Shown: positions 1-18,844 of the stretch, piece by piece | How positions within the stretch are numbered: position 1 is the stretch's first letter | Layout of the letters: each line of letters opens with the position of its first letter | Virus record (IMG/VR): IMGVR_UViG_3300045988_023617 | Source of the DNA: a virus | Direction: 5' to 3' (one strand) | Length of the DNA stretch: 18,844 nt | Made by a program: the position numbers and the translations under genes | The notes under the pieces: model-generated | What the model was told of the DNA's origin: nothing | Databases searched by the model: none | What the model saw: only the letters and a program-made list of their open reading frames with translations

Positions 1-216
1 GGAGGGGAGGGGCCCCAGCCACTAGCCTTTTTCCACAACCGCTCTGTTATGTGTTTGTGTTTTCTTTTGCGTTGTGTGTTCTTGCTTGTATTGTTGGTGG
101 TTGTGGTTGTGGTGGGGTTTTTTTGTGTTGTTTTTTTGTGTGTTTTGGGTGTGTTGTTTTTGGTGTGTGGTATGATGTGAGTATCAACCGATAGGGAAAG
201 GAAAAAAATAAAATGA
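1..216. repeat. Left inverted terminal repeat (216 bp), perfect reverse complement of 18629..18844
   Basis: I compared the two ends base by base. They are identical from position 1 through 216 and diverge at 217 (a on the left, t in the right-end complement). The repeat reaches the very first and last base of the window, as expected for true ends of a protein-primed linear genome. Confidence 0.97.
168..176 (+). promoter_or_regulatory. Extended -10 promoter (TGGTATGAT) inside the left ITR, firing inward
   Basis: TGn + TATGAT at 168-176, directly after the G/T tract and about 37 nt upstream of the ATG at 213. It is the same motif class as the TGnTATAAT boxes at other gene junctions. No clear -35. 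Confidence 0.5.
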
Positions 217-7422: not shown

Positions 7423-7463
7423 CAAGGCCCGGAGCGCAATCCACGTGATTGCTCCGGGCCTTG
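7423..7463 (+). promoter_or_regulatory. Strong hairpin between capsid and tail-knob genes (attenuator or RNA-stability element)
   Basis: CAAGGCCCGGAGC (7423-7435) pairs perfectly with GCTCCGGGCCTTG (7451-7463), 13 bp, plus an inner AATC/GATT stem. The apex contains CACGTG. No T run follows. A smaller hairpin GTAGCC-GGTT-GGCTAC lies at 7383-7398. Confidence 0.5.
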
Positions 7464-7481
7464 CCATACCGGAGGACAATA

Positions 7482-9809
7482 ATGATTGACGACGCGAACC
7501 CTTACGTAGAATCTAATTTTTCTTGGGCGGAATGGACACCGAACACGACACTGAAACTCTGCCGAGTGCCGTGGGATGCTTCATACCGTGATATCGTGCG
7601 GTTTGTTTCACGTGAAACGCAGCGAGAATGGTTCGACAAACTGGACGGCGTGGAATGCCGTCCGGCCACTATGCATATTTTCAACGCGCCCGCCCGCGTC
7701 GAACTGCCGTTTAACGAAGCATCGAACTGGAATTATCTTGTAGCCTATAACGACTACCCCGAATTGGAGGGGCCTCGCGCGTGGTATTACTTCATTCAGC
7801 GCGTCGAATACGTCAACGCCCATTGCACGCAATTGGTCTTGATGCTGGACGTGTGGCAGAGTTTCCAGCACGACGTCACATTCGGTAGCTGCTATGTGAC
7901 GCGCGGTCATATCGGCGTCGCCAACGAACGCCAGTGGAATGACTATGGGCGCACATATCTGGCGCTCCCGGAGGGCTTGGATACCGGAAGTGAAATGGTC
8001 ACAACGTCACAGGAATATCAGAGCATTATCGAAGGACGGCATTATGACATAGATGGCGGTGCCGTCGATTGGGTCGATTACGGTTTGATTGTGGTCAGCA
8101 CCACTAATCTCACCGACGACCCCGGCAGCACGTCCGAACCAAAGCTTACCACCGCAACCGGGGCCATCTTCGAGCAGGAGACGGACGGCTGTTCTGTCTA
8201 CTATTGTGAAAACCGAATGGCGTATGTCGCCAACATCATGGCCCTTGGCACGCTGTTCCCGTGGATAACGCAAGGTATTTGCGCCGTCTACATGGTGCCG
8301 AAAATTCCACAGGATTACGTGAGCCGATATGGGCATAGGGTTACGGAGATTTACGGGCAGCCAGTGTCAGAGGAATACGGCAACATTTATTCTTTTAATT
8401 CCTCTCTCGATTCGGACTTACGCTACGAGGATGTTATGTCCGTTGCGAACTTTCGCAATAAATTCAACATCCCCGCCCGATACCGGAATCTGCGCAAGCT
8501 CTATTGTTATCCGTTCTGCGTTATAGAATGCAGCTGTCTGAACGGCACGGTCATTACTTATCGACCTGAAGATATTCAATCCGATACGCTCACTGTCCGT
8601 GAAACCTACACTTACGCGCCGTCCGGTGCAAGAATCAATTTCTACATTCCCGGCTACAATGAGGCTGGAGCGACTACTACGGTCCCGCTGCGTATCGACG
8701 GCAAAGACATGGGGCTACCGATAGACGGCGGCGAAATGCTCAACGCAAGTTTCGGTATCACCAATTTGCCTCACTTTTCAGTGGTCAACAATGGTGGCGC
8801 GCTGGCTATGGCGAACAGCGCGTACACCCGCGCCTACGCGCAGGAGTCAGCCCAATGGACCAGGCAAAAGGCTTTAACTTCGGCTAACGTGGTCAACTCC
8901 AATGCCGCATTACAGCGCGAATACGCCACACGGCAAACCAATTGGGCAAACGAGAATCGGACGGCAACCAACGCCATCACTGCAAACTCGCTAAACCAGT
9001 CCCTTGCCATCGGACAGAATCAGACCAGCCAGATGGCTAATCTCCAAGTGGAGCAAAATATCAAGAGCAACAATCTCAACGGTATGGCCGGTATCATCGG
9101 GGGGGGACTGAACGCCGTCGCATCCCGCAGTCCATTGGGTGCGGTGAACGCGGTTGGCGGCGCGTTCCTCGGCTCCGCACATACGGACATCGCCAATTAC
9201 GGCATCAATTCGTCTGCCGCTGTCTCCAATTCCACGGCGGCGGCGAATACGGCGAATCAGATTGCCACCAATGCGGCGGCCACGTCGCAGGCCAACGCCT
9301 ACGCAAGCGGAGCGACCGCACTGGGCAACCAGCTGAACGCCGTCGTGTCGCAGGCGAATTACGGACTGGCCTCATATGCGGCTCAAGGTGATTACCAAAA
9401 CGCCATCGCCGGAATTAACGCTCAGGTGCAGCAGATGCAACTGACTCCGCCAACCACTTCGGGAGCGCTCGGCGGTGACATGTTCAACTTAAGCAACGGA
9501 ATTATGGGCGTGTTGGTGCGGTTCAAAACGTGTGCGCCGAGCGCGTTGAGGGCGGCAGGTGAATACATGCTACGCTATGGGTATTTTGTCCAGCGATTCG
9601 TCACCCCTCCCGCCTCACTGGAATGCATGGAGAAATTCACGTTCTGGCAGATGCAGGAGGCGTATGTGCGGGGCACGCTGCCTGAAGAATACCGACTGAC
9701 AATCAAAGGTATGTTTGAACGTGGTGTGACGGTTTGGGACAAGCCCGAGTATATCGGCGTGACTGACTGGGCTGACAATGAGCCACTTCCGGGCATTGGT
9801 TACGAGTGA
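7482..9809 (+). CDS. Tail knob / distal tube protein (phi29 gp9-like)
   Basis: The track ORF begins at TTG 7449, inside the hairpin. ATG 7482 has GGAGGA 5 nt upstream and gives 775 aa. [28 protein letters not shown] resembles gp9 [41 protein letters not shown] resembles [25 protein letters not shown] resembles [23 protein letters not shown]...GVTVWD resembles KYGYKINR...GITLWH. Confidence 0.88.
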   Translation: [775 protein letters not shown]

Positions 9810-9821: not shown

Positions 9822-10772
9822 ATGAGTAGGTCTAAAAAGAATCGAGTTGGCGGCGCGTTGCACCCACGTGGCAATTACGCGAAAACACGCGCCGTCACGC
9901 TTGATGACATGTATCTTCATTTGCTGATGGAACTCGCACTGAACCGTTTCAGCTGGCGCGGATTACCGCCCACTGTAGACGAACGTTGGCTGGAAATATG
10001 TCTGTGCGAATACGGATGCGCGTTGTTTTTCGAGGATAAGCGTATCGGCAGGTTCCTTGTGACTCAGGCAGGTTATCAAGGCAGATTGAACGTGTATAAT
10101 AATCCGACATGTTTCGAGCCGGTAGGCGTCAACTACCACTACAAGCAGCTCAAGGCCGGTTCGGAATGCATCCCTATCTGGGATAATCGAATGCGCGTCG
10201 GATTCAAGCCGACGTTATGGCAGTACGCGCGGCGCCTCGCCGACATTGACAAGGCGTATGACGTGAATCTGGAGAGTCTGAAGCTGCCGACCATCATCAC
10301 TGCCGACCCTCGCACCAAGCTCACCGTGCAGAACATGCTTCAACAACGGCAGGACGGTCAGGATTATATTATCGGATACGATTCGCTTGACCCCGGCAGC
10401 TCGTTCCAGCCGTGGCCGAACACAACGCCTTATCTGTTGGACAAGTTCGTCCAGCAAAAAGCGCAAGTGACTAATGAGGTGTTGGGATATCTCGGCATTC
10501 AATCGTCCGGCACGGAGAAAAAGGAACGGCTTATTTCCGATGAGGTGGCGCAAGCCAATGAGAAAGTAGACGTGTTCCGCTTGAGTTTCCTCAAGGCGCG
10601 GCAGACTGCGGCGACTGAGATTAACCGATTGTGGCCGCAACTGAACGTGTGGGTGGAGTATGCGGACGCGCAAAGCTCCGGCGTGCCCAACGCGCTTGAT
10701 TCAAGCGCAGGCGGCACTACGGACATCGATATGCCCGCATCGTACGACGCGGGTATCGGAGGGGTATTATGA
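9822..10772 (+). CDS. Portal / upper collar connector protein (phi29 gp10-like)
   Basis: 316 aa. LALNRFSWRGLPPTV resembles gp10 LAYQLFEWENLPPTI. GTEKKERLISDEV resembles NLEKKERMVTDEV. Basic N-terminus, as in gp10. No SD is present, so this is a candidate leaderless gene. Confidence 0.9.
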   Translation: MSRSKKNRVGGALHPRGNYAKTRAVTLDDMYLHLLMELALNRFSWRGLPPTVDERWLEICLCEYGCALFFEDKRIGRFLVTQAGYQGRLNVYNNPTCFEPVGVNYHYKQLKAGSECIPIWDNRMRVGFKPTLWQYARRLADIDKAYDVNLESLKLPTIITADPRTKLTVQNMLQQRQDGQDYIIGYDSLDPGSSFQPWPNTTPYLLDKFVQQKAQVTNEVLGYLGIQSSGTEKKERLISDEVAQANEKVDVFRLSFLKARQTAATEINRLWPQLNVWVEYADAQSSGVPNALDSSAGGTTDIDMPASYDAGIGGVL

Positions 10773-11566
10773 TGACGCAGGATTTTACCGCCTATGCTAT
10801 GGAGACTCCCGGCGAGTACACTGAAACTCTCGGCAATCTCATTGCATTCGGATACGACACGGCTGACAAGCTGCATCTGTCCGCCGACTACTATCCGATT
10901 TACCGAGAAGAACATCGTGCGGAATTGAACGAGAAAATCGTTCGCCATTACGCATTAAGGGAAATTGGGCAGGAAACCGCGCAGCAATTCGTTTTCTACT
11001 TGGGAACGACGATGGCGGAAATCATGCCCTATTTCAACGAGCGTTACCGGACGCTGGACATGCAATACAATCCGTTGGACTCTATGGATATGACGACGGA
11101 CAGCGAGAGCGGCAGCGAATCCCAGTCGTCCGGCAAAGCGTCCAGTACGCAGGACTCGACCAGCTCTAGCACATCCAAGTCAGACAATTCCAGCACTACC
11201 ACGTCAAAGAGTTTTGATAGCGACGTGCCGCAAACCGGTGTTGTAGGCGACTTCGCCCGCTACGCCTCCCATGCGAACGAATCGCAGGCGGACAGTTCCG
11301 GTACCGCGTCCAGTTCGCAGGATTCGACCAGTCACACCACGGCGCAAAGCGCAACCGACTACCAACACGATTCGAGCAACGCAAAGGGCAAGAGTCATGT
11401 GACCGGGCGCAGTCAGAGCGCCATGAGTCTGATTCAGGAATACCGGAACGCCATCATCAACGTGGATATGGAAATCGTACGCAGCCTCGAACCGTGTTTC
11501 ATGCAGATATGGGGTTCGTATGATACAATATTCGGCAACTGCCATAACTATGGAGAATGGGAGTAA
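10769..11566 (+). CDS. Lower collar protein (phi29 gp11-like) with long Ser/Thr-rich central segment
   Basis: 265 aa. ATGATG overlaps the portal stop (ATGA coupling), and GGAGGGG lies upstream. It sits directly after the portal. An N-terminal helical region (REIGQETAQQFVFYLGTTMAEIMPYFNERY) is followed by an S/T/D/Q-rich stretch and a conserved-looking C-terminus (LIQEYRNAIINVDMEI). Confidence 0.7.
   Translation: MMTQDFTAYAMETPGEYTETLGNLIAFGYDTADKLHLSADYYPIYREEHRAELNEKIVRHYALREIGQETAQQFVFYLGTTMAEIMPYFNERYRTLDMQYNPLDSMDMTTDSESGSESQSSGKASSTQDSTSSSTSKSDNSSTTTSKSFDSDVPQTGVVGDFARYASHANESQADSSGTASSSQDSTSHTTAQSATDYQHDSSNAKGKSHVTGRSQSAMSLIQEYRNAIINVDMEIVRSLEPCFMQIWGSYDTIFGNCHNYGEWE
11521..11529 (+). 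promoter_or_regulatory. Candidate extended -10 box (TGATACAAT) upstream of the appendage genes
   Basis: TGn + TACAAT, 40 nt upstream of ATG 11569, inside the 3' end of the lower-collar gene. Confidence 0.3.
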
Positions 11567-11568
11567 TC

Positions 11569-12159
11569 ATGAGCACCATTAATGCACTGGTTCCACGGCA
11601 ACGCTTGTTCGACGGGGTGCCGACATCTGTTCCGTTCACTTATCGGGACGGGCTGACAACTTTGCAGTTGATTGAATGCTTGCGCCATAATCTTGACGCT
11701 TTGCAGACATATGTAGATAAGGTTAAAGAATGGGTGAAGTCCGAATCCGACAAGACAGATGCGGAAATCTCCGAAATCAGCGAACATCTTGCGTCGGTCG
11801 ATGTGCAGCTTGAGGATATTATAAGCAAGCTCGGCAAGCTCGAAATCACCAATGATATTTATGACGTAACGCAAGGGCGGTACGTTGATAGCGTTGACGC
11901 AATGCGTAATATGTATCGCGAACTGGCTGTATTTGGCGCACGAGTCAACCAAATGGCACAACTATCCGTGCCGATGGCCGCCGCACATACGTGTCTTGAG
12001 TTCGCGGTGCTTGGCAACAAGACCATTTTCCACAACGACGAACCGCGCATTACGCCACGCGACGCGCACGTGGATGACGGCGAACCCGTCAATCCGCTAT
12101 CGGTGGAGAATCTCGCCAACAGTGTCGTGGTTAACGATTTTATAAAAACCGCAAAATAA
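11569..12159 (+). CDS. Putative neck/tail appendage structural protein with central coiled coil, 196 aa
   Basis: The track ORF starts at 11557. ATG 11569 lies 2 nt after the upstream TAA, with GGGAG 5 nt upstream. A heptad-like segment (LDALQTYVDKVKEWVKSESDKTDAEISEISEHLASVDVQLEDIISKLGKLE) is present. It sits between the collar and fiber genes. Confidence 0.5.
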   Translation: MSTINALVPRQRLFDGVPTSVPFTYRDGLTTLQLIECLRHNLDALQTYVDKVKEWVKSESDKTDAEISEISEHLASVDVQLEDIISKLGKLEITNDIYDVTQGRYVDSVDAMRNMYRELAVFGARVNQMAQLSVPMAAAHTCLEFAVLGNKTIFHNDEPRITPRDAHVDDGEPVNPLSVENLANSVVVNDFIKTAK

Positions 12160-12177
12160 TAGGAAGGATTACGGCAA

Positions 12178-12531
12178 ATGACCAGCAAAACCTCAAATTA
12201 TAATCTTGAGAAATATGACGCGACGGACGCGCCTAACCTTGAAGGCTCGTACAACCGTTCGATGGACATTCTCGATACGACGTTAAAGACGCAGTCGGAT
12301 AGGATTGACGCCATTCCGACACCGGAGTCACTACCGGAAGGTTTGAGTGCATTCACTGCCGCCCTTGGACTGAGCGCCGCTAACGCCAATGCGCTCGGTA
12401 CCGCGCTTAATCACTTCCTCAACCGTGTTCCCGCAACCAGTGGCGGCCAGTACACCGTCAAGAACCTCAACGACACCAAGGTCACCGCGGAGGGTCTGCC
12501 GTTCGTTTCCACCACTGCTTCGGGAGATTGA
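12178..12531 (+). CDS. Appendage protein 1 (117 aa) carrying the shared N-terminal fiber-anchor module
   Basis: SD AGGAAGGA. N-terminus KTSNYNLEKYDATDAPNLEGSYNRSMDILDTTLKTQSDRI aligns without gaps to the N-termini of the next two gene products. Confidence 0.65.
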   Translation: MTSKTSNYNLEKYDATDAPNLEGSYNRSMDILDTTLKTQSDRIDAIPTPESLPEGLSAFTAALGLSAANANALGTALNHFLNRVPATSGGQYTVKNLNDTKVTAEGLPFVSTTASGD

Positions 12532-12722
12532 TGGACATGGCAGACGGACAGCAGGCCACGCCGGTGGACTCCGCCGCGTACGGTATGACGGGACATTTTG
12601 GACTGCCGCTTTACAATGACGCGACACCGATGGACATGCGCGACGGGTTCAACAGAGCCATGCGCATGATAGACCAGATTCTAAATCAGCTCAATACTCA
12701 AATTCGAGAAAAAAAGGACTAA
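12531..12722 (+). CDS. Appendage protein 2 (63 aa), essentially the shared anchor module alone
   Basis: ATG 12531 overlaps the upstream TGA (TGATG), and GGGAG lies 4 nt upstream. The track lists a TTG start at 12528. Contains MTGHFGLPLYNDATPMDMRDGFNRAMRMIDQILNQLNTQI. Confidence 0.55.
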   Translation: MDMADGQQATPVDSAAYGMTGHFGLPLYNDATPMDMRDGFNRAMRMIDQILNQLNTQIREKKD

Positions 12723-12725
12723 ACA

Positions 12726-14660
12726 ATGGCTACCGTATACAGTAAAACCGATAATTACGGGCTTAATTTGTATGGCGACAATGACCCAGCCGATTTAAGG
12801 GACGGCTACAATGGCTCCATGCACACCATTGACGATACGCTCGGAAAGCACCTTAACCGAATCGAAGGTGTCGAGTCGCGTGAAACGCATGATGAGGAAG
12901 TGGTCAAAGCGCTGATTGGTGATAACACGGTTGACAGCGCCACCGCATCGAAAGCCAAATGGGATAAATCGATTACAGACGCCGCCGCCGCAACCGCCGC
13001 CGCCGCAGCCGCAGCAGGTAAGGCGGACGACAATACCGCGATTCTCTCCGCGTTGGGAGCCGACACCACGGCAAACGCCACCGCCAATAAAACCAAATGG
13101 GATAAAGCGGGAGCGGACGCAGCGACAGCCATAGGCAAGGCTGACAACAATAAAACAATTCTTACCGCACTTGGGGCAGGCTCAACCGTTGACGCCACGA
13201 CGCAAAAAACCAAACTGGACAACACCGCCACCAAGGTGGACGAGCTTGCGAACGCGCGCGTGGACAGCAAGCTTGACTCGCACTTCATCATCCATGCGCA
13301 CCGTGGTTCCTACCGTTTTCCCGAAAACACAATGGAAGGGATTATGTGGGCGGTACGTCACGGATATATACCTGAAATCGACGTGCAACTCACGTCGGAC
13401 GGCGTGCCCGTAATCCTACACGACACCTCCACCGCCCGCACGATGACGGGGACGGCAGCTAACGTTTCATCCATCACTTACGCCGATTTTATGTCACGTG
13501 AAGTCAAAGCCAAGGTTCACGGCGGCAACACCGGCAAGCCAGTGAGTATGGAACAGGTGCTACAGGCTGTGGGGGATAGTCCCGTCGATTTTGAAATCAA
13601 GTCATTGACCAACGAAACTACGGACGCAATGCTGGAACTACTGCGAAAGTATAGCGCCACCGCAATCCACGAAGTGACTTCGTTCAGCTGGGAACAGTGC
13701 GTCCGCGCCGTGCAAGGGGGCATAAAATACGTTTCGTGGACGTGGGACGCTAACGCCATGCCACATTCTTGGGCTGACATGAAGAATGCCGGTATTTTCT
13801 GCGGAAACCCGCGTGAAGACAAACTCACTTCGGCAATGGTCAGCGCCGCACACTCGGCTGGCGTCAAGATTAATCCGTGGCTTATTAATGATCCCGTGGC
13901 ATATGAGCGAGTCACCGCGCTTGGAGTTGATGGCATTACCTCCAATTGGCCGGATTACGCCAGTGGACAGTTGGAGCGCAACTTCACGCCATTCAGCACG
14001 GGACAGAACGTTTTCATGCGTCCGAACTATGCCCCACAAGGCGGCACGGTATCACAGGAAATATCGGAAGCGGTTAGGGCGAAAAGCTCGTATCTCGCAC
14101 CGGACGGACTTTTCCAACTCGGAGACGCGGACTCTCAGATGCTAGTGGAATTGGTTGAGTGCGGCACGGTGACGCTGCCGGTCAGTATCGACCTTGAAGG
14201 GTTTGAGTCTCGCGTTCAGATTGGCGAGAATGGCGAGACGAAGAACATTGCAGTAATCGCAGTGAAGGAGTCAACCCCTATCGGCCAATTCAACGACGTG
14301 GCAACGGCTGGACAGGTCGGTATCATTGCGGGCGTTCGACGTAACGGTGCTACATTCGGCGGTTTTTATCAAGACAATGTGACGACGGTTGCCTTCGATA
14401 ATACCCCCGCAGTGTCTCCATCTGTGCCAAACGACAAAGCCGTAGGTGTGCATGCGTCCTTCGTTCTCGACCGTGACCACGCTCGAATCATTTGGGCGTA
14501 TTCCAATGGACAATCAGGTGATGTGACCACAGGAGATAATAAGGGCGTCACGTTGCCGGATACCGATAAATACCGTCTGTTTATCCGCCTTGCTCGCAAT
14601 TTTAAGAGCGCATGGAAAATTAGGGTACGCCCCTCTGATGGTTATCTCTACGAGAACTGA
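12726..14660 (+). CDS. Tail appendage / receptor-binding protein with glycerophosphodiester phosphodiesterase (GDPD) domain
   Basis: 644 aa. It carries the shared N-terminal module (KTDNYGLNLYGDNDPADLRDGYNGSMHTIDDTLGKHLNRI) and ~40-aa repeats with an Ala run. The GDPD signature is HAHRGSYRFPENTMEG...EIDVQLTSDGVPVILHD...INPWLINDP...GVDGITSNWPD (approx nt 13281-13955). A ~230-aa C-terminal domain of unknown fold follows. Confidence 0.85.
   Translation: MATVYSKTDNYGLNLYGDNDPADLRDGYNGSMHTIDDTLGKHLNRIEGVESRETHDEEVVKALIGDNTVDSATASKAKWDKSITDAAAATAAAAAAAGKADDNTAILSALGADTTANATANKTKWDKAGADAATAIGKADNNKTILTALGAGSTVDATTQKTKLDNTATKVDELANARVDSKLDSHFIIHAHRGSYRFPENTMEGIMWAVRHGYIPEIDVQLTSDGVPVILHDTSTARTMTGTAANVSSITYADFMSREVKAKVHGGNTGKPVSMEQVLQAVGDSPVDFEIKSLTNETTDAMLELLRKYSATAIHEVTSFSWEQCVRAVQGGIKYVSWTWDANAMPHSWADMKNAGIFCGNPREDKLTSAMVSAAHSAGVKINPWLINDPVAYERVTALGVDGITSNWPDYASGQLERNFTPFSTGQNVFMRPNYAPQGGTVSQEISEAVRAKSSYLAPDGLFQLGDADSQMLVELVECGTVTLPVSIDLEGFESRVQIGENGETKNIAVIAVKESTPIGQFNDVATAGQVGIIAGVRRNGATFGGFYQDNVTTVAFDNTPAVSPSVPNDKAVGVHASFVLDRDHARIIWAYSNGQSGDVTTGDNKGVTLPDTDKYRLFIRLARNFKSAWKIRVRPSDGYLYEN
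12927..13250 (+). repeat. In-frame ~40-aa tandem repeats (about 2.5 copies) in the fiber shaft
   Basis: The units are SATASKAKWDKSITDAAAATAAAAAAAGKADDNTAILSALGA, TANATANKTKWDKAGADAATAIGKADNNKTILTALGA, and the partial VDATTQKTKLDNTATKVDEL. Confidence 0.75.
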
Positions 14661-14676
14661 TGGACTATTTTAAGCG

Positions 14677-14709
14677 ATAGCCATGCTGCTATAATAGCAG
14701 CATGGCTAT
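14677..14709 (+). promoter_or_regulatory. Perfect 33-nt palindrome containing an extended -10 box (TGCTATAAT, 14687-14695) and the ATG of the tail-lysin gene
   Basis: ATAGCCATGCTGCTAT-A-ATAGCAGCATGGCTAT has 16-nt arms with no mismatch. TATAAT (14690-14695) straddles the centre. ATG 14702 is in the 3' arm, exactly 6 nt after the hexamer. TACTTTTG follows the palindrome. Confidence 0.6.
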
Positions 14710-15940
14710 TACTTTTGATGATTGGGTTAAGCAGACACAAGACCGATATTGGGATATGGATGGCGCATACGGTGCGCAGTGCTGGGACCTATGGGCCAAG
14801 TATAGTATGGACATGTATGGTCTGAGCGTTCAAGACTGCATCACCCCCACCGGCTATGCCGAGGGATGCTATACGAGGTTCCCCTACACCGCCGCACTCG
14901 GCAACGTGTATGAGAAAATGGACTCCAATTATACGCCAGTTAAGGGTGACGTGGTTTTTTGGACATTCGGCGGTCAAATCTACACTGGCTCCCATGTCGC
15001 AATCGTATGGGGTGGCGTCACTGGCGATAATATCGATGTTCTAACACAAAATCCCACTCCGGCAGTTCATCAAACCTTGCCACTCTTGCGCGGTTCGCAG
15101 CTGCTCGGCTACCTGCATCCCAAGAACTTGCAGCCGGGCGGCACGACGCCGGATAATCCGAACGGCGGCAATCCCACGGGTGGGGATAATCAAGGTTCGG
15201 GCGTGTCTGGCGGTTCGTCCGCATGGATACAGCAACAGGGCGATAATTTGATATACCATTACGGCTCGCGTAGTGGCGGCATGTCGGCGTTGTTCGTCAA
15301 GACTACCGCGCAGAATTGGATATATCGCGGCGCGTCCGGCACGGGTGCGCCGGATGGAGACGGCGGGCAATCGTCGCCCAGTGTAGGCGACGGCGAGTCA
15401 AGTTATGCGCTTTATGTGGTGGGCACGGTTGAATCATCATTGCGATGGGATGCGGTAGAGCCTAATCGCCAAGGCATCGGCATTGCGCAATGGAGTTTCG
15501 GCCGCCGCCTGCAAGTACTGAACGCGATGAAGACGGTTGACGCTGATGGATACCGGACGTTCGCCGCCGCCGCGCCGGACATTGTCGCGCTTATGGACTC
15601 GGGCGGCACGTTTGACAGGGCAATGACCGGTAGTGAGGTTGCTGCGTTCCAGACGTGGGCACGTCGTCCTCAGTCTCATGCGGGTCAACGCGCTCAGTTC
15701 GCTACGGATTACGAGGGCTATCCGCAAAAATACGACGACGCGAAGATGCAAATACTGTGGACTTGCGCATATCATCAATCTCCCGCAGGTGCGTTGAACG
15801 TGCCGACCGCGACCACGCTTGCGGGGTTGCGTGACAACATTCTAGCCACATCCCCGTTCGGACCATATGGCACGCGATATCAGGCCGCCTATAGCTTGCT
15901 GAACGTCTGGGATGGGAAGAGTGCGCCGCCAAACTTTTAA
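14702..15940 (+). CDS. Tail-associated peptidoglycan hydrolase: N-terminal CHAP endopeptidase/amidase + C-terminal phi29 gp13-type lysozyme-like domain
   Basis: 412 aa. CHAP signature: DMDGAYGAQCWDL (Cys27), GSHVAIVWGG (His98), VLTQNP (Asn117). A Gly/Asn/Pro linker covers aa ~145-175. C-terminal VVGTVESSLRWDAVEPNRQGIGIAQWS resembles gp13 GNMQSESTINPGLW...GFGLVQWT, with a putative catalytic Glu in GTVES. It occupies the phi29 gene 13 position, after the appendage gene. Confidence 0.8.
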   Translation: MAITFDDWVKQTQDRYWDMDGAYGAQCWDLWAKYSMDMYGLSVQDCITPTGYAEGCYTRFPYTAALGNVYEKMDSNYTPVKGDVVFWTFGGQIYTGSHVAIVWGGVTGDNIDVLTQNPTPAVHQTLPLLRGSQLLGYLHPKNLQPGGTTPDNPNGGNPTGGDNQGSGVSGGSSAWIQQQGDNLIYHYGSRSGGMSALFVKTTAQNWIYRGASGTGAPDGDGGQSSPSVGDGESSYALYVVGTVESSLRWDAVEPNRQGIGIAQWSFGRRLQVLNAMKTVDADGYRTFAAAAPDIVALMDSGGTFDRAMTGSEVAAFQTWARRPQSHAGQRAQFATDYEGYPQKYDDAKMQILWTCAYHQSPAGALNVPTATTLAGLRDNILATSPFGPYGTRYQAAYSLLNVWDGKSAPPNF

Positions 15941-18374: not shown

Positions 18375-18632
18375 TCAATCGCCGTTGTCAACCGAGACAA
18401 CATACGTACGGCACGGGCGACCCTTCTTAGACAAACACCGCCTGGTTTCAACGTAATCATAATCGTAGCTCAAAGAAAGTTCGATAACCGCTGCAAGAGC
18501 GGACTCGAACGTAATAACACTATCATCAAAACGACCATTATCACGAACGGGAGTCTTGAGCACGCCTTCAATACAAACTTCGTACCAATTGTCCTCTTCA
18601 AGTTCGATAACATAAGCGTTAAAATTAATCAT
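18375..18632 (-). CDS. Right terminal early protein, 85 aa, acidic, unknown function; start codon lies inside the ITR
   Basis: The only credible minus-strand gene. The ATG (complement of 18630-18632) and its SD are ITR sequence. It ends 5 nt before the bidirectional terminator region. Confidence 0.65.
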   Translation of the reverse strand: MINFNAYVIELEEDNWYEVCIEGVLKTPVRDNGRFDDSVITFESALAAVIELSLSYDYDYVETRRCLSKKGRPCRTYVVSVDNGD

Positions 18633-18844
18633 TTTATTTTTTTCCTTTCCCTATCGGTTGATACTCACATCATACCACACACCAAAAACAACACACCCAA
18701 AACACACAAAAAAACAACACAAAAAAACCCCACCACAACCACAACCACCAACAATACAAGCAAGAACACACAACGCAAAAGAAAACACAAACACATAACA
18801 GAGCGGTTGTGGAAAAAGGCTAGTGGCTGGGGCCCCTCCCCTCC
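18629..18844. repeat. Right inverted terminal repeat (216 bp)
   Basis: Exact reverse complement of 1..216. It contains the mirror copies of the extended -10 box, the SD-like GGAAAGG and the ATG that opens ORF 18375..18632 (-). Confidence 0.97.
18669..18677 (-). promoter_or_regulatory. Extended -10 promoter (TGGTATGAT on the minus strand) inside the right ITR, firing inward
   Basis: Mirror copy of 168-176, with the same distance to the ATG of the right terminal gene. Confidence 0.5.

What the first reader, a model, noticed from the sequence alone, without database searches (positions are those of the whole stretch)
12178..12870. Three consecutive, translationally coupled appendage genes share one ~40-aa N-terminal module; one gene is little more than the module
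Three stretches align without gaps: KTSNYNLEKYDATDAPNLEGSYNRSMDILDTTLKTQSDRI (117-aa protein), MTGHFGLPLYNDATPMDMRDGFNRAMRMIDQILNQLNTQI (63-aa protein) and KTDNYGLNLYGDNDPADLRDGYNGSMHTIDDTLGKHLNRI (644-aa GDPD protein). Shared positions follow the pattern (N/H)(Y/F)xLxxY..P.(D/N)(L/M)..(G/S)(Y/F)N..M..(I/L)D..L. DNA identity between the copies is low, so they are old paralogues kept by selection. The genes are joined by TGATG and a 3-nt gap, which suggests equimolar synthesis. One option is a heterotrimeric fiber in which only one chain carries the enzyme. Another is three alternative ligands for one docking site on the collar. In a third, the 63-aa protein acts as a cap, spacer or assembly chaperone that mimics the anchor. 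phi29 uses a single homotrimeric gp12, so any of these would differ from it.
Basis: partly seen in the sequence, partly recalled or inferred. Interest (0 to 1): 0.78.

Follow-up and report, generated by a model that had tools for sequence, protein, structure and literature searches.

The report
Shared anchor on three phage appendage proteins
Three adjacent genes of a small phi29-like gut phage begin with the same ~45-residue attachment module, one gene being little more than that module, and the arrangement is kept in hundreds of uncultured relatives but has never been described.

Summary
Proteins A (117 aa, 12178-12531), B (61-64 aa, 12531-12722) and C (644 aa, GDPD enzyme, 12726-14660) share an ungapped ~40-50-aa N-terminal module. 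A/C and B/C are each 17/40 identical, against a background maximum of 10/40.

The window is a complete phi29-like genome. Its closest isolates are Bifidobacterium phages BP1 and BD811P1-3.

The module has no Pfam, PHROG or PDB match. It opens at least 670 protein clusters: about 90 fibre-like proteins of 300-680 aa with interchangeable enzyme ends, plus many 50-60-aa and 80-120-aa proteins. The A-B-C triplet recurs in three divergent lineages, all under dN/dS of about 0.06-0.1.

B, or an equivalent small partner, accompanies the large protein in nearly every lineage examined. A is recurrently truncated or lost.

The module is predicted as a hairpin plus a three-heptad coiled coil, the layout of the collar-binding end of the Staphylococcus phage Andhra receptor-binding protein.

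Best reading, at moderate confidence: one neck anchor carried by separate oligomers, namely an enzyme fibre, an optional short fibre and a headless stub. An obligate 1:1:1 heterotrimer is disfavoured. A B-C hetero-complex is not excluded.

No multimer model or virion proteomics was available.

The parts
11557..12159 (+). p200: conserved 200-aa coiled-coil protein between the lower-collar gene and A; candidate docking or anchoring partner
   Evidence: Homologues sit directly upstream of the module genes in BP1 (gp8), BD811P2 (gp14), the 16-kb clade and L056, L083, L086, L088, L093, L094 and L095. It is 29-38% identical across clades in which the lower collar gives no BLAST hit. No Pfam or PDB match.
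12161..12168 (+). Shine-Dalgarno-like AGGAAGGA, 9 nt upstream of the A start
   Evidence: Read directly from the sequence.
12178..12531 (+). Gene A, 117 aa: module, then one helix-loop-helix shaft repeat, then a C-terminal beta-hairpin 'peg'
   Evidence: 263 protein clusters at E<=1e-3; the 120 listed are all 116-118 aa and 85-97% identical. dN/dS 0.06-0.10. 45-53% identical in the 16-kb clade. AF2 monomer model has pLDDT 83.
12187..12306 (+). A module (residues 4-43), A-type: NYxLEKY..D..NL..(Q/S)YN.SMD..D
   Evidence: (81 bits).
12337..12420 (+). A residues 54-81, helix-loop-helix 'ALG...NA..LG', resembling the repeats in the shaft of C
   Evidence: AF2 helices H54-62 and H67-81. P0242 is an A-like protein with one extra C-type 'ALG..KTKWDKA' repeat.
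12451..12507 (+). A residues 92-110, C-terminal motif (Y/F)TVxxLxxxKVTAEG(L)P(F)V ('peg')
   Evidence: Short helix plus beta-hairpin in the AF2 model. Conserved in divergent 80-120-aa A-like proteins. A peg HMM gives E=0.004 for window A and ~1e-7 to 1e-13 for other A-likes.
12529..12533 (+). TGATG overlap of the A stop and the first ATG of B
12531..12722 (+). Gene B, 63 aa (alternative starts 12528 TTG, 12537 ATG): short variable N-extension, module, end of helix
   Evidence: More than 100 protein clusters of 51-63 aa on 17-19-kb contigs. Present in every assessable related locus. Orthologues are BP1 gp7 and BD811P2 gp15. Median dN/dS 0.057.
12585..12704 (+). B module (residues 19-58), B-type: (F/Y)xLPLY......D(L/M)RDG(Y/F)N.AMR.ID followed by a regular heptad helix
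   Evidence: (95 bits). AF2 of the B-type module in P0001 gives a hairpin plus helix at pLDDT 84-96.
12720..12728 (+). B stop TAA, 3-nt spacer ACA, C start ATG. B and C are in the same frame here.
   Evidence: The shared frame is not conserved in relatives.
12726..14660 (+). Gene C, 644 aa: enzyme-bearing appendage / receptor-binding protein (gp12 position)
   Evidence: Pfam GDPD, PHROG tail fiber/phosphodiesterase, PDB GDPD chains including staphylococcal phage proteins. Only the N-terminal ~80 aa is 84% identical to BP1 gp6; the rest differs.
12744..12863 (+). C module (residues 7-46): B-like hairpin, A-like helix
   Evidence: (99 bits).
12894..13280 (+). C shaft, residues ~57-185: Ala/Thr-rich repeats 'L.ALGA......A..KTKWDKA'
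   Evidence: Read from the translation.
13299..13955 (+). GDPD (glycerophosphodiester phosphodiesterase) domain, residues 192-410, with the HRG and E.D...HD motifs present
   Evidence: Pfam PF03009, E=9.5e-24. PDB hits down to 1.9e-11. Motifs read from the sequence.
13956..14657 (+). C-terminal ~230-aa domain of C with no family match
   Evidence: No Pfam hit.
10769..11566 (+). Lower collar (adaptor Ad4 / phi29 gp11 equivalent), the presumed tail-side context of the appendages
   Evidence: PHROG 3225/5472, E=2.5e-28.

Best explanation
The shared ~45-residue unit is the virion-proximal anchor of the neck appendages of a large, mostly uncultured family of phi29-like phages of gut Gram-positive bacteria. 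It consists of an N-terminal beta-hairpin or loop (T..(Y/F).L..Y....P.(D/N)L) that packs on the start of a short coiled-coil stem of three heptads (YN.SM..ID..L......I). Three kinds of protein carry it. C has the anchor followed by a shaft and an exchangeable cell-wall-degrading or binding enzyme; here that enzyme is a GDPD that would cut glycerol-phosphate polymers such as teichoic acids. A has the anchor plus one shaft repeat and a small C-terminal hairpin. B has the anchor and nothing else. I think it most likely that these are separate homo-oligomers, presumably trimers, that use the same anchor to occupy the same kind of site around the neck. That site would be on the collar/portal and/or on the co-inherited p200 protein. 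The ring of sites would then be filled by a mixture of enzyme-bearing fibres, optional short fibres and headless stubs. In this reading B is an indispensable filler or spacer that completes the ring and limits the number and spacing of the bulky enzyme fibres, while A is an accessory that can be lost.

Shown: homology of the three modules; purifying selection; conservation of the arrangement; the N-terminal position of the module; exchange of C-terminal domains; dispensability of A; near-constant presence of a small partner; predicted hairpin-plus-helix secondary structure.

Inferred: that the module binds the neck; the oligomeric state; presence of A and B in the virion; the filler role of B.
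For: 1. Anchor role. The module is at the extreme N-terminus in 92 of 93 large proteins that carry it. Downstream domains are swapped between close relatives: GDPD here, pectate-lyase-like in BP1, a different domain in BD811P2, GDSL/SGNH in L088, L089 and L091 (PMC12694917). The genes follow the lower-collar gene, in the position of phi29 gene 12.
2. Same layout as a solved picovirus anchor. The Andhra receptor-binding protein (RBP) has an N-terminal 36-38-residue loop that binds portal and collar, then a 34-38-residue coiled-coil stem (PMC9710869). AF2 gives a beta-bridged N-terminal segment plus helix 22-44 for A and a hairpin plus helix for the B-type module. The heptad register M5-I8-L12-x15-I19-x22 ends at a Pro in A, at the chain end in B and at a Gly in C.
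3. Separate oligomers rather than one heterotrimer. A is absent in BP1, BD811P and L088. It is deleted in L071 and L080, and cut down to the module or less in L043, L065 and P0001-3. In L095, L086 and L083 the large protein continues the heptad pattern for 100-190 residues, which requires self-association well beyond the ~25-residue helix of the small partner. A has the same shaft repeat as C and looks like a miniature fibre.
4. B matters. It is intact in all ~79 assessable IMG/VR loci. Both independent A deletions that reach B are in frame and keep B. Median dN/dS is 0.057.
5. Interchangeable anchors. The C module is B-like in the window clade and A-like in part of the 16-kb clade. P0010 is a chimera with a C-type hairpin and a B-type helix. 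This fits a common docking site.
Against: No direct evidence exists that A or B is in the virion, or for any oligomeric state.

A filler made only of an anchor has no documented precedent in phi29-like phages. Andhra, P68 and phi29 fill all 12 sites with one protein.

Three species sharing 12 sites gives no obvious symmetric pattern.

The window's own C has only a short heptad segment (residues 26-63), so the self-association argument rests on homologues in other lineages.

The near-constant pairing of a small partner with the large protein is explained equally well by a B-C hetero-complex.

The locus sample was retrieved by similarity to the module itself, so counts of co-occurrence are biased. 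One distant isolate (Clostridium phage CI461P1) has a single, weak module gene and no small partner.
Confidence: 0.4

Rival explanations
1. Hetero-oligomeric appendage. B, and A where present, co-assembles with C in one anchor bundle at each site. The non-equivalent chains of a sideways-attached fibre would then be encoded by specialised paralogues, and fewer than three enzyme domains would be displayed per appendage. B2C, BC2 or 3+3 bundles are alternatives.
For: Two or more adjacent module genes occur in about 14 lineages or sub-lineages examined. The coiled-coil unit has the same length in A, B and C. The operon is tight, with overlapping or near-overlapping genes. Natural in-frame fusions of the A module to B exist in otherwise intact genomes. 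The enzyme domains attached (GDPD, SGNH/GDSL, beta-propeller) are folds that work as monomers. In Andhra the three N-termini of one trimer adopt different conformations to fit the neck. Heterotrimers built from paralogous N-terminal helical bundles are the rule in myophage baseplate wedges.
Against: A is dispensable, so an obligate A:B:C trimer is out. Long heptad shafts in the large proteins of L095, L086 and L083 need self-association. The fusions are also explained by the need to keep B translated after a deletion that removes its own start. AF2 of the fusion gave no inter-module packing; the first module had pLDDT below 50.
Confidence: 0.25
2. B is a non-structural assembly factor or regulator. 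By mimicking the anchor it transiently caps C, or the docking sites, during morphogenesis. It would prevent premature or excess attachment, or nucleate the coiled coil, and would be absent from the finished virion.
For: B is tiny and consists only of the interaction module. It has the most regular amphipathic helix of the three. It is encoded immediately next to the fibre gene, as fibre chaperones usually are.
Against: Known fibre chaperones act on C-terminal domains and are not paralogues of the fibre N-terminus (my own knowledge). B gave no Pfam or PHROG match at all, so no match to a chaperone family either. B-type modules stay within the same family as functional fibre anchors and exchange parts with them, which suggests they fit the same structural site.
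Confidence: 0.15
3. A and B are leftovers of receptor-binding-gene cassette exchange: 5' stubs of former fibre genes left by recombination within the conserved module, with no function of their own.
For: Fibre C-termini are exchanged between relatives. Module chimeras and deletions occur. A looks like a truncated fibre.
Against: dN/dS is 0.06-0.10 over dS of about 1. Lengths are fixed: 117 aa in more than 100 clusters for A and 51-63 aa for B. A-type and B-type signatures are conserved across clades with ~25% identical connectors. A has its own conserved C-terminal motif.
Confidence: 0.03

Closest known systems
N-terminal anchor of staphylococcal picovirus RBPs (Andhra gp15, P68 gp17; PMC9710869)
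   Same: The phage type is the same (phi29-like). The layout is the same: an N-terminal loop that contacts portal and collar, then a short trimeric coiled-coil stem, then a host-specific distal domain. The N-terminal part is the only region conserved between otherwise unrelated RBPs.
   Different: There is no detectable sequence similarity; a profile search of all PDB chains gave nothing. Andhra and P68 have a single RBP gene filling all 12 sites. They have no anchor-only paralogue and no short paralogue.
Anchor-only or adaptor proteins of T7-like and KP34-like podophages (K1-5/SP6 gp37, 'truncated first RBP'; PMC6872550)
   Same: A small protein homologous to the N-terminal anchor of a tail fibre is encoded as a separate gene and is part of a multi-protein receptor-binding apparatus.
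   Different: Those adaptors are larger and carry a T4gp10-like branching domain. The enzyme-bearing RBP docks onto that domain with a different short peptide. Here the small and large proteins carry the same module, and B has no room for a branching domain. There is no sequence relation.
phi29 gp12 pre-neck appendage
   Same: Gene position after the lower collar and before the tail lysin. It is also an enzyme-bearing, teichoic-acid-directed appendage.
   Different: phi29 has one homotrimeric protein at 12 copies. No Pfam or PDB similarity was found to the N-terminus or distal domains here. phi29 has no p200, A or B equivalents.
Heterotrimeric baseplate wedge of contractile-tailed phages ((gp6)2-gp7 type; PMC10966104, PMC13450770)
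   Same: Paralogous chains with different distal domains are joined through a bundle formed by their N-terminal helical segments. This is the known precedent for the hetero-oligomer reading.
   Different: It belongs to a different virus morphotype, location and fold, with no homology. Here hetero-association is only a hypothesis.
Andhra gp6 'RBP anchor'
   Same: [quoted passage not shown] It is a possible functional analogue of p200.
   Different: No sequence similarity. gp6 carries a hydrolase domain and is encoded elsewhere in the genome. The role of p200 is inferred only from linkage.

Membership tests
phi29-like (picovirus) neck appendage / RBP, gp12-equivalent (applies to C) | Encoded in the late operon after connector and lower collar, before the tail lysin | tested here: met
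   Order is knob 7449-9809, connector 9822-10772 (PF05352), lower collar 10769-11566, p200, A, B, C, then CHAP/lysozyme 14702-15940.
phi29-like (picovirus) neck appendage / RBP, gp12-equivalent (applies to C) | Conserved N-terminal attachment part plus exchangeable distal host-recognition or enzyme domain | tested here: met
   The N-terminal ~80 aa is 84% identical to BP1 gp6 while the rest is unrelated. GDPD domain in C. Diverse C-termini in homologues.
phi29-like (picovirus) neck appendage / RBP, gp12-equivalent (applies to C) | Sequence or fold homology to phi29 gp12, Andhra gp15 or P68 gp17 | tested here: not met
   No Pfam hit other than GDPD. PDB hits are only to GDPD domains. The module profile has no PDB hit.
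phi29-like (picovirus) neck appendage / RBP, gp12-equivalent (applies to C) | Homotrimer, 12 per virion | not testable with these tools
The only evidence is indirect: long heptad shafts in homologues.
Andhra-type RBP anchor (N-terminal loop + coiled-coil stem) | N-terminal non-helical segment of a few tens of residues followed by a ~35-residue coiled coil | tested here: met
   AF2: residues 1-21 non-helical with a beta-bridge, helix 22-44 in A; hairpin plus helix in the B-type module; three-heptad register. The unit is shorter than in Andhra (~21+23 against ~37+36 residues).
Andhra-type RBP anchor (N-terminal loop + coiled-coil stem) | Contacts with portal clip/stem and collar domain | not testable with these tools
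   Needs cryo-EM or multimer modelling.
Anchor-only adaptor proteins (K1-5/SP6 gp37, KP34-type truncated first RBP) (considered for B) | T7 gp17-like N-terminal anchor plus T4gp10-like branching domain | tested here: not met
   No Pfam or PHROG hit for B or A. B is 61-64 aa, with the module filling residues 19-58.
Anchor-only adaptor proteins (K1-5/SP6 gp37, KP34-type truncated first RBP) (considered for B) | Enzyme-bearing RBP lacks the anchor and docks by a separate conserved peptide | tested here: not met
   C carries the same module as B.
Tail-fibre assembly chaperones (Tfa/gp38/gp57A-like) (considered for B) | Match to a known chaperone family; usually encoded downstream of the fibre gene | tested here: not met
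   No Pfam or PHROG match. B lies upstream of C in most lineages and downstream only in L086.
Heterotrimeric N-terminal helical-bundle assemblies (myophage wedge type) (considered for A+B+C) | Fixed set of paralogous chains all required for the bundle | tested here: not met
   A is absent or deleted in close relatives, and the number of module genes varies from 2 to 3.
Heterotrimeric N-terminal helical-bundle assemblies (myophage wedge type) (considered for A+B+C) | Physical co-assembly of the paralogous N-termini | tested here: inconclusive
   AF2 of the natural A-module::B fusion gave no confident packing.

The most novel reading that the evidence does not exclude
The anchor-only protein B, and A where present, is a stoichiometric virion component. 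In one version it co-assembles with the enzyme-bearing chain into a hetero-oligomeric appendage. In the other it alternates with the fibres around the 12-fold collar. In both versions the symmetry mismatch and crowding at the neck are solved by gene duplication: specialised 'headless' paralogues of the fibre replace the conformational polymorphism of a single protein seen in Andhra, P68 and phi29. This would be a new building principle for podophage appendages, shared by hundreds of gut phages.
Probability: 0.3. Interest if true: 0.8.

Novelty: new variant of a known kind. Interest (0 to 1): 0.6.

Why it matters
Phi29-like phages are the smallest tailed phages and a structural model system, yet all solved members attach one kind of appendage protein to the neck. 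Here a whole, abundant gut lineage keeps a set of two or three paralogues with one anchor, and one of them is a bare anchor. The lineage includes the only cultured lytic phages of human-gut Bifidobacterium.

Practical value. The module (first ~45 aa, or ~80 aa in the window clade) marks the boundary for swapping receptor-binding domains when engineering host range in Bifidobacterium phages. A profile of it finds the receptor-binding genes, and their small partners, in metagenomic picoviruses where annotation currently says 'hypothetical protein'.

Conceptual value. It gives a tractable case for asking how a 3-fold fibre docks on a 12-fold collar, and whether phages use 'dummy' fibres to set the number of active ones. 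BP1 and the BD811P phages are in culture, and each has only the B+C pair.

Tried and rejected
- Megablast of the whole window against GenBank phages: no match. Relatives were found only at protein level.
- Pfam and PHROG scans of A and B: nothing at E<=0.1.
- PDB by sequence with the module profile, the A-family profile and p200: only chance coiled-coil hits at E>0.1.
- Foldseek of the A model against PDB: nothing. Against BFVD: only uncharacterised metagenomic relatives.
- AF2 of the natural A-module::B fusion P0001: first module pLDDT below 50, no inter-module information. MAFFT always aligned A-type sequences onto the second module, so the first half had a depth of 3.
- Second word-indexed protein search, with A: returned only near-identical 117-aa proteins, no distant ones.
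- Programmed read-through of B into C: rejected, because the shared frame is not conserved in relatives.
- 'The A module is always retained': rejected after L071 and L080.
- 'The peg motif links p200 and A in the window': not significant for the window's p200, only for the L083, L093 and L056 lineages.
- Strict rule 'the module is never alone': fails for the distant Clostridium phage CI461P1.
- Genome-contig scan for prophage or host context: no relative found.
- Literature: no paper in the held library discusses these small proteins. BP1 gp7 and gp8 and BD811P2 gp14 and gp15 are annotated 'hypothetical'.


Full report
WHAT THE WINDOW IS. The 18,844-nt window has a 216-bp perfect inverted terminal repeat. 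Its gene order is that of a phi29-like podophage:
- tail knob with phi29 gp9 domains, 7449-9809;
- connector, PF05352, 9822-10772;
- lower collar, 10769-11566;
- a 200-aa protein ('p200'), 11557-12159;
- the three genes of the finding;
- a CHAP/lysozyme tail lysin, a packaging ATPase, a holin and an amidase.

It has no nucleotide-level relative among GenBank phages. At protein level the nearest isolates are Bifidobacterium phages BP1 and BD811P1-3.

CHECK OF THE OBSERVATION. A (12178-12531, 117 aa), B (12531-12722, 63 aa) and C (12726-14660, 644 aa, GDPD at residues 192-410) exist as described. The three 40-mers align without gaps. A/C and B/C are each 17/40 identical and A/B is 9/40. The best chance match among 37,444 six-frame 40-mers of the window is 10/40.

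BLASTP gives 3e-8 for A-C and 9e-10 for B-C. A-B is not significant alone. A profile of the module scores all three at 80-99 bits. Nucleotide identity of the copies is 44-50%.

The TGATG overlap and the 3-nt gap are there. The start of B could also be the ATG at 12537, and many homologues begin 'MAD'.

HOW WIDESPREAD IT IS. A module profile found 406 protein clusters in the word-indexed search. Most of the top hits were 51-63-aa B-like proteins on 17-19-kb contigs. An exhaustive HMMER scan of 1.84 billion representatives found 672 clusters at E<=1e-3.

They continue into varied shafts and ends. The remaining hits are 50-60-aa B-like or 80-120-aa A-like proteins. None has a name other than 'hypothetical' or 'hydrolase'. 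There is no Pfam, PHROG or PDB match.

CONSERVATION OF THE ARRANGEMENT. In 80 IMG/VR loci my ORF and HMM scan found the following:
- A (109-119 aa), B (53-65 aa) and C (326-651 aa, variable end) in the same order in 53 loci of the 18-19-kb clade;
- the same triplet in a second, ~16-kb clade with module identity of only 48-63%.

A third, low-GC lineage (L094) has the same triplet. Other lineages have different sets:
- B+C in BP1, BD811P and L088;
- a small A/B hybrid plus C in L083 and L093;
- C followed by B in L086;
- B plus two large proteins in L095;
- two large proteins in L056.

Every one of these has a p200-family gene directly upstream. A distant Clostridium picovirus isolate has only one weak module gene.

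Between the window and the 16-kb clade the connector is ~25% identical and the lower collar gives no BLAST hit. By contrast p200 is 29-38%, A 45-53% and B 45-52% identical. So p200 and the module genes behave as one conserved cassette.

SELECTION AND PARALOGY. Over 46 loci, dN/dS is 0.063 for the A module, 0.099 for the rest of A, 0.097 for the first 55 residues of C, and 0.057 (median) for B.

A-type modules (NYxLEKY..D..NL..QYN.SMD..D) and B-type modules (LPLY......DLRDGYN.AMR.ID) are distinct orthologous groups across clades. The C module is B-like in the window clade and A-like in part of the 16-kb clade. P0010 joins a C-type hairpin to a B-type helix. The copies are therefore old, functional and partly interchangeable.

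WHAT IS DISPENSABLE. A is missing in BP1, BD811P and L088. It is truncated to 65 aa in L043 and to 48 aa in L065. It is reduced to its last 17 residues in L071 and gone in L080.

Two independent in-frame deletions fuse the A module to B (P0001 and P0003; P0002). They occur in otherwise intact 17-18-kb genomes from different samples. B is intact in every assessable locus. A is thus accessory. B, or an equivalent small partner, is close to constant.

STRUCTURE. AF2 on A with 25 diverse homologues gave pLDDT 83 and pTM 0.40, an extended rather than globular model. Its elements are:
- residues 1-21 non-helical, with a beta-bridge;
- helix 22-44, beginning at YN.SM;
- helices 54-62 and 67-81, a helix-loop-helix like the repeats of the C shaft;
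- a short helix and beta-hairpin at residues 94-110.

Foldseek found nothing in the PDB and only uncharacterised relatives in BFVD. AF2 on the natural fusion P0001 modelled the B-type module confidently as hairpin plus helix. It left the first module disordered, so it says nothing on module-module contacts.

The helix has an a/d register of three heptads. It ends with Pro in A, at the chain end in B and with Gly in C.

COMPARISON WITH SOLVED PICOVIRUSES. In Andhra the RBP is an N-terminal 36-38-residue loop that binds portal and collar, then a 34-38-residue coiled-coil stem, then the distal domain. The 12 trimers sit in two staggered sets with different N-terminal conformations, and an extra protein (gp6) anchors them (PMC9710869). 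The module here has the same layout without sequence similarity. This is the basis for calling it the neck anchor. It is an analogy, not a demonstrated homology.

An obligate A:B:C heterotrimer is unlikely because A can be lost. In addition, in L095, L086 and L083 the large protein continues a heptad coiled coil for 100-190 residues. The 50-80-aa partner cannot accompany that length, so the large chain must associate with itself (the heptad score is a crude one of my own).

A also looks like a miniature fibre with the same shaft repeat as C. I therefore favour separate oligomers that share one anchor and hence one kind of docking site, with B as a headless stub (confidence 0.4).

A B-C hetero-complex remains a serious rival (0.25). 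It explains at once why a small partner is almost always present. B as a transient assembly factor gets 0.15. Remnants of cassette exchange are contradicted by the selection data (0.03).

The docking partner may be p200 rather than, or in addition to, the collar, because p200 is conserved together with the modules while collar and connector diverge. This is an inference.

NOVELTY. Modular RBPs with conserved N-terminal anchors, multi-RBP systems and anchor-only adaptors are known (PMC6872550). What is new is the combination. A previously unnamed anchor family in phi29-like phages is present in two or three paralogous genes per genome. These include a bare-anchor protein that carries the same module as the fibre instead of a branching domain. 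I class it as a new variant of a known kind.

LIMITS. No multimer modelling was possible. No virion proteomics or structure exists for these phages. Loci were retrieved through the module itself, which biases co-occurrence counts. Metagenomic deletions could include assembly errors, although P0001 was found on two contigs from two sample records (possibly the same sample) and P0002 on contigs from several samples. ORF starts in my scan are simply the first start codon.

Noticed in passing
window 1-216 and 18629-18844: The two ends of the window are a perfect 216-bp inverted terminal repeat. The window is therefore a complete linear phi29-like genome (protein-primed type). The repeat is far longer than phi29's 6-bp repeat.
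   Followed up: partly
window 11557-12159; L083 5414-5989; L093 1594-2205: A conserved ~170-270-aa coiled-coil protein (p200 family, no known domain) always precedes the module genes. In L083 and L093 its C-terminus ends with the same 'TVxxLxxAKVxAxGxxYIP' motif as the C-terminus of A-like proteins (E~2e-5 with a peg HMM). The tail of the window's p200, 'LSVENLANSVVVNDFIKTAK', only loosely resembles it and is not significant.
   Followed up: partly
L089 3001-3249 (P0001); L091 3001-3273 (P0002): Natural in-frame fusions of the A module (residues 1-34 or 1-40) to B. They have two different deletion end points and lie in otherwise intact 17-18-kb phage genomes, followed by a 488-aa GDSL-type fibre.
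   Followed up: yes
P0010 (53 aa, on a 17.9-kb contig): A B-sized protein whose hairpin is C-type (YGLNLYGDNDPADLRDGYN) and whose helix is B-type (ILDQKIHQLEILVRE). This indicates recombination between the paralogous modules.
   Followed up: no
window 12720-12728: B and C are in the same reading frame, separated only by TAA and one codon (ACA). Read-through would give a tandem-module protein. The frame relation is not conserved in relatives, so it is probably incidental.
   Followed up: yes
window 12894-13280 (C residues ~57-185); P0242: The C shaft is built of Ala/Thr-rich repeats 'L.ALGA...A..KTKWDKA'. A contains one degenerate copy. P0242 is a 170-aa A-like protein with an extra full C-type repeat inserted.
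   Followed up: partly
L095 2663-5203: One lineage has a B-like gene followed by two large module proteins (370 and 400 aa), both with ~200-residue coiled coils of similar length. This could be two alternative fibres or a mixed fibre.
   Followed up: no
window 11090-11420 (lower collar residues ~110-215): The lower-collar protein has a long Ser/Thr/Asp/Gln-rich low-complexity insert. Similar inserts occur in the collar proteins of L083, L088 and CI461P1.
   Followed up: no
P0293 (2976 aa) and P0313 (2122 aa): Two giant proteins matched the broader profile 9-13 times over positions 23-89 but have no module by the module-only HMM. They are probably repetitive helical proteins picked up by the A C-terminal columns and look spurious.
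   Followed up: partly
L096 (Clostridium phage CI461P1) 54-776: A 240-aa terminal gene begins 'KTTHYELPQWMGTDKPTFLGDLNGAFLDIDTNL', a remote version of the module. This hints that the hairpin + 'N..(M/F)..ID' N-terminus belongs to a wider superfamily of Gram-positive phage fibre N-termini.
   Followed up: partly
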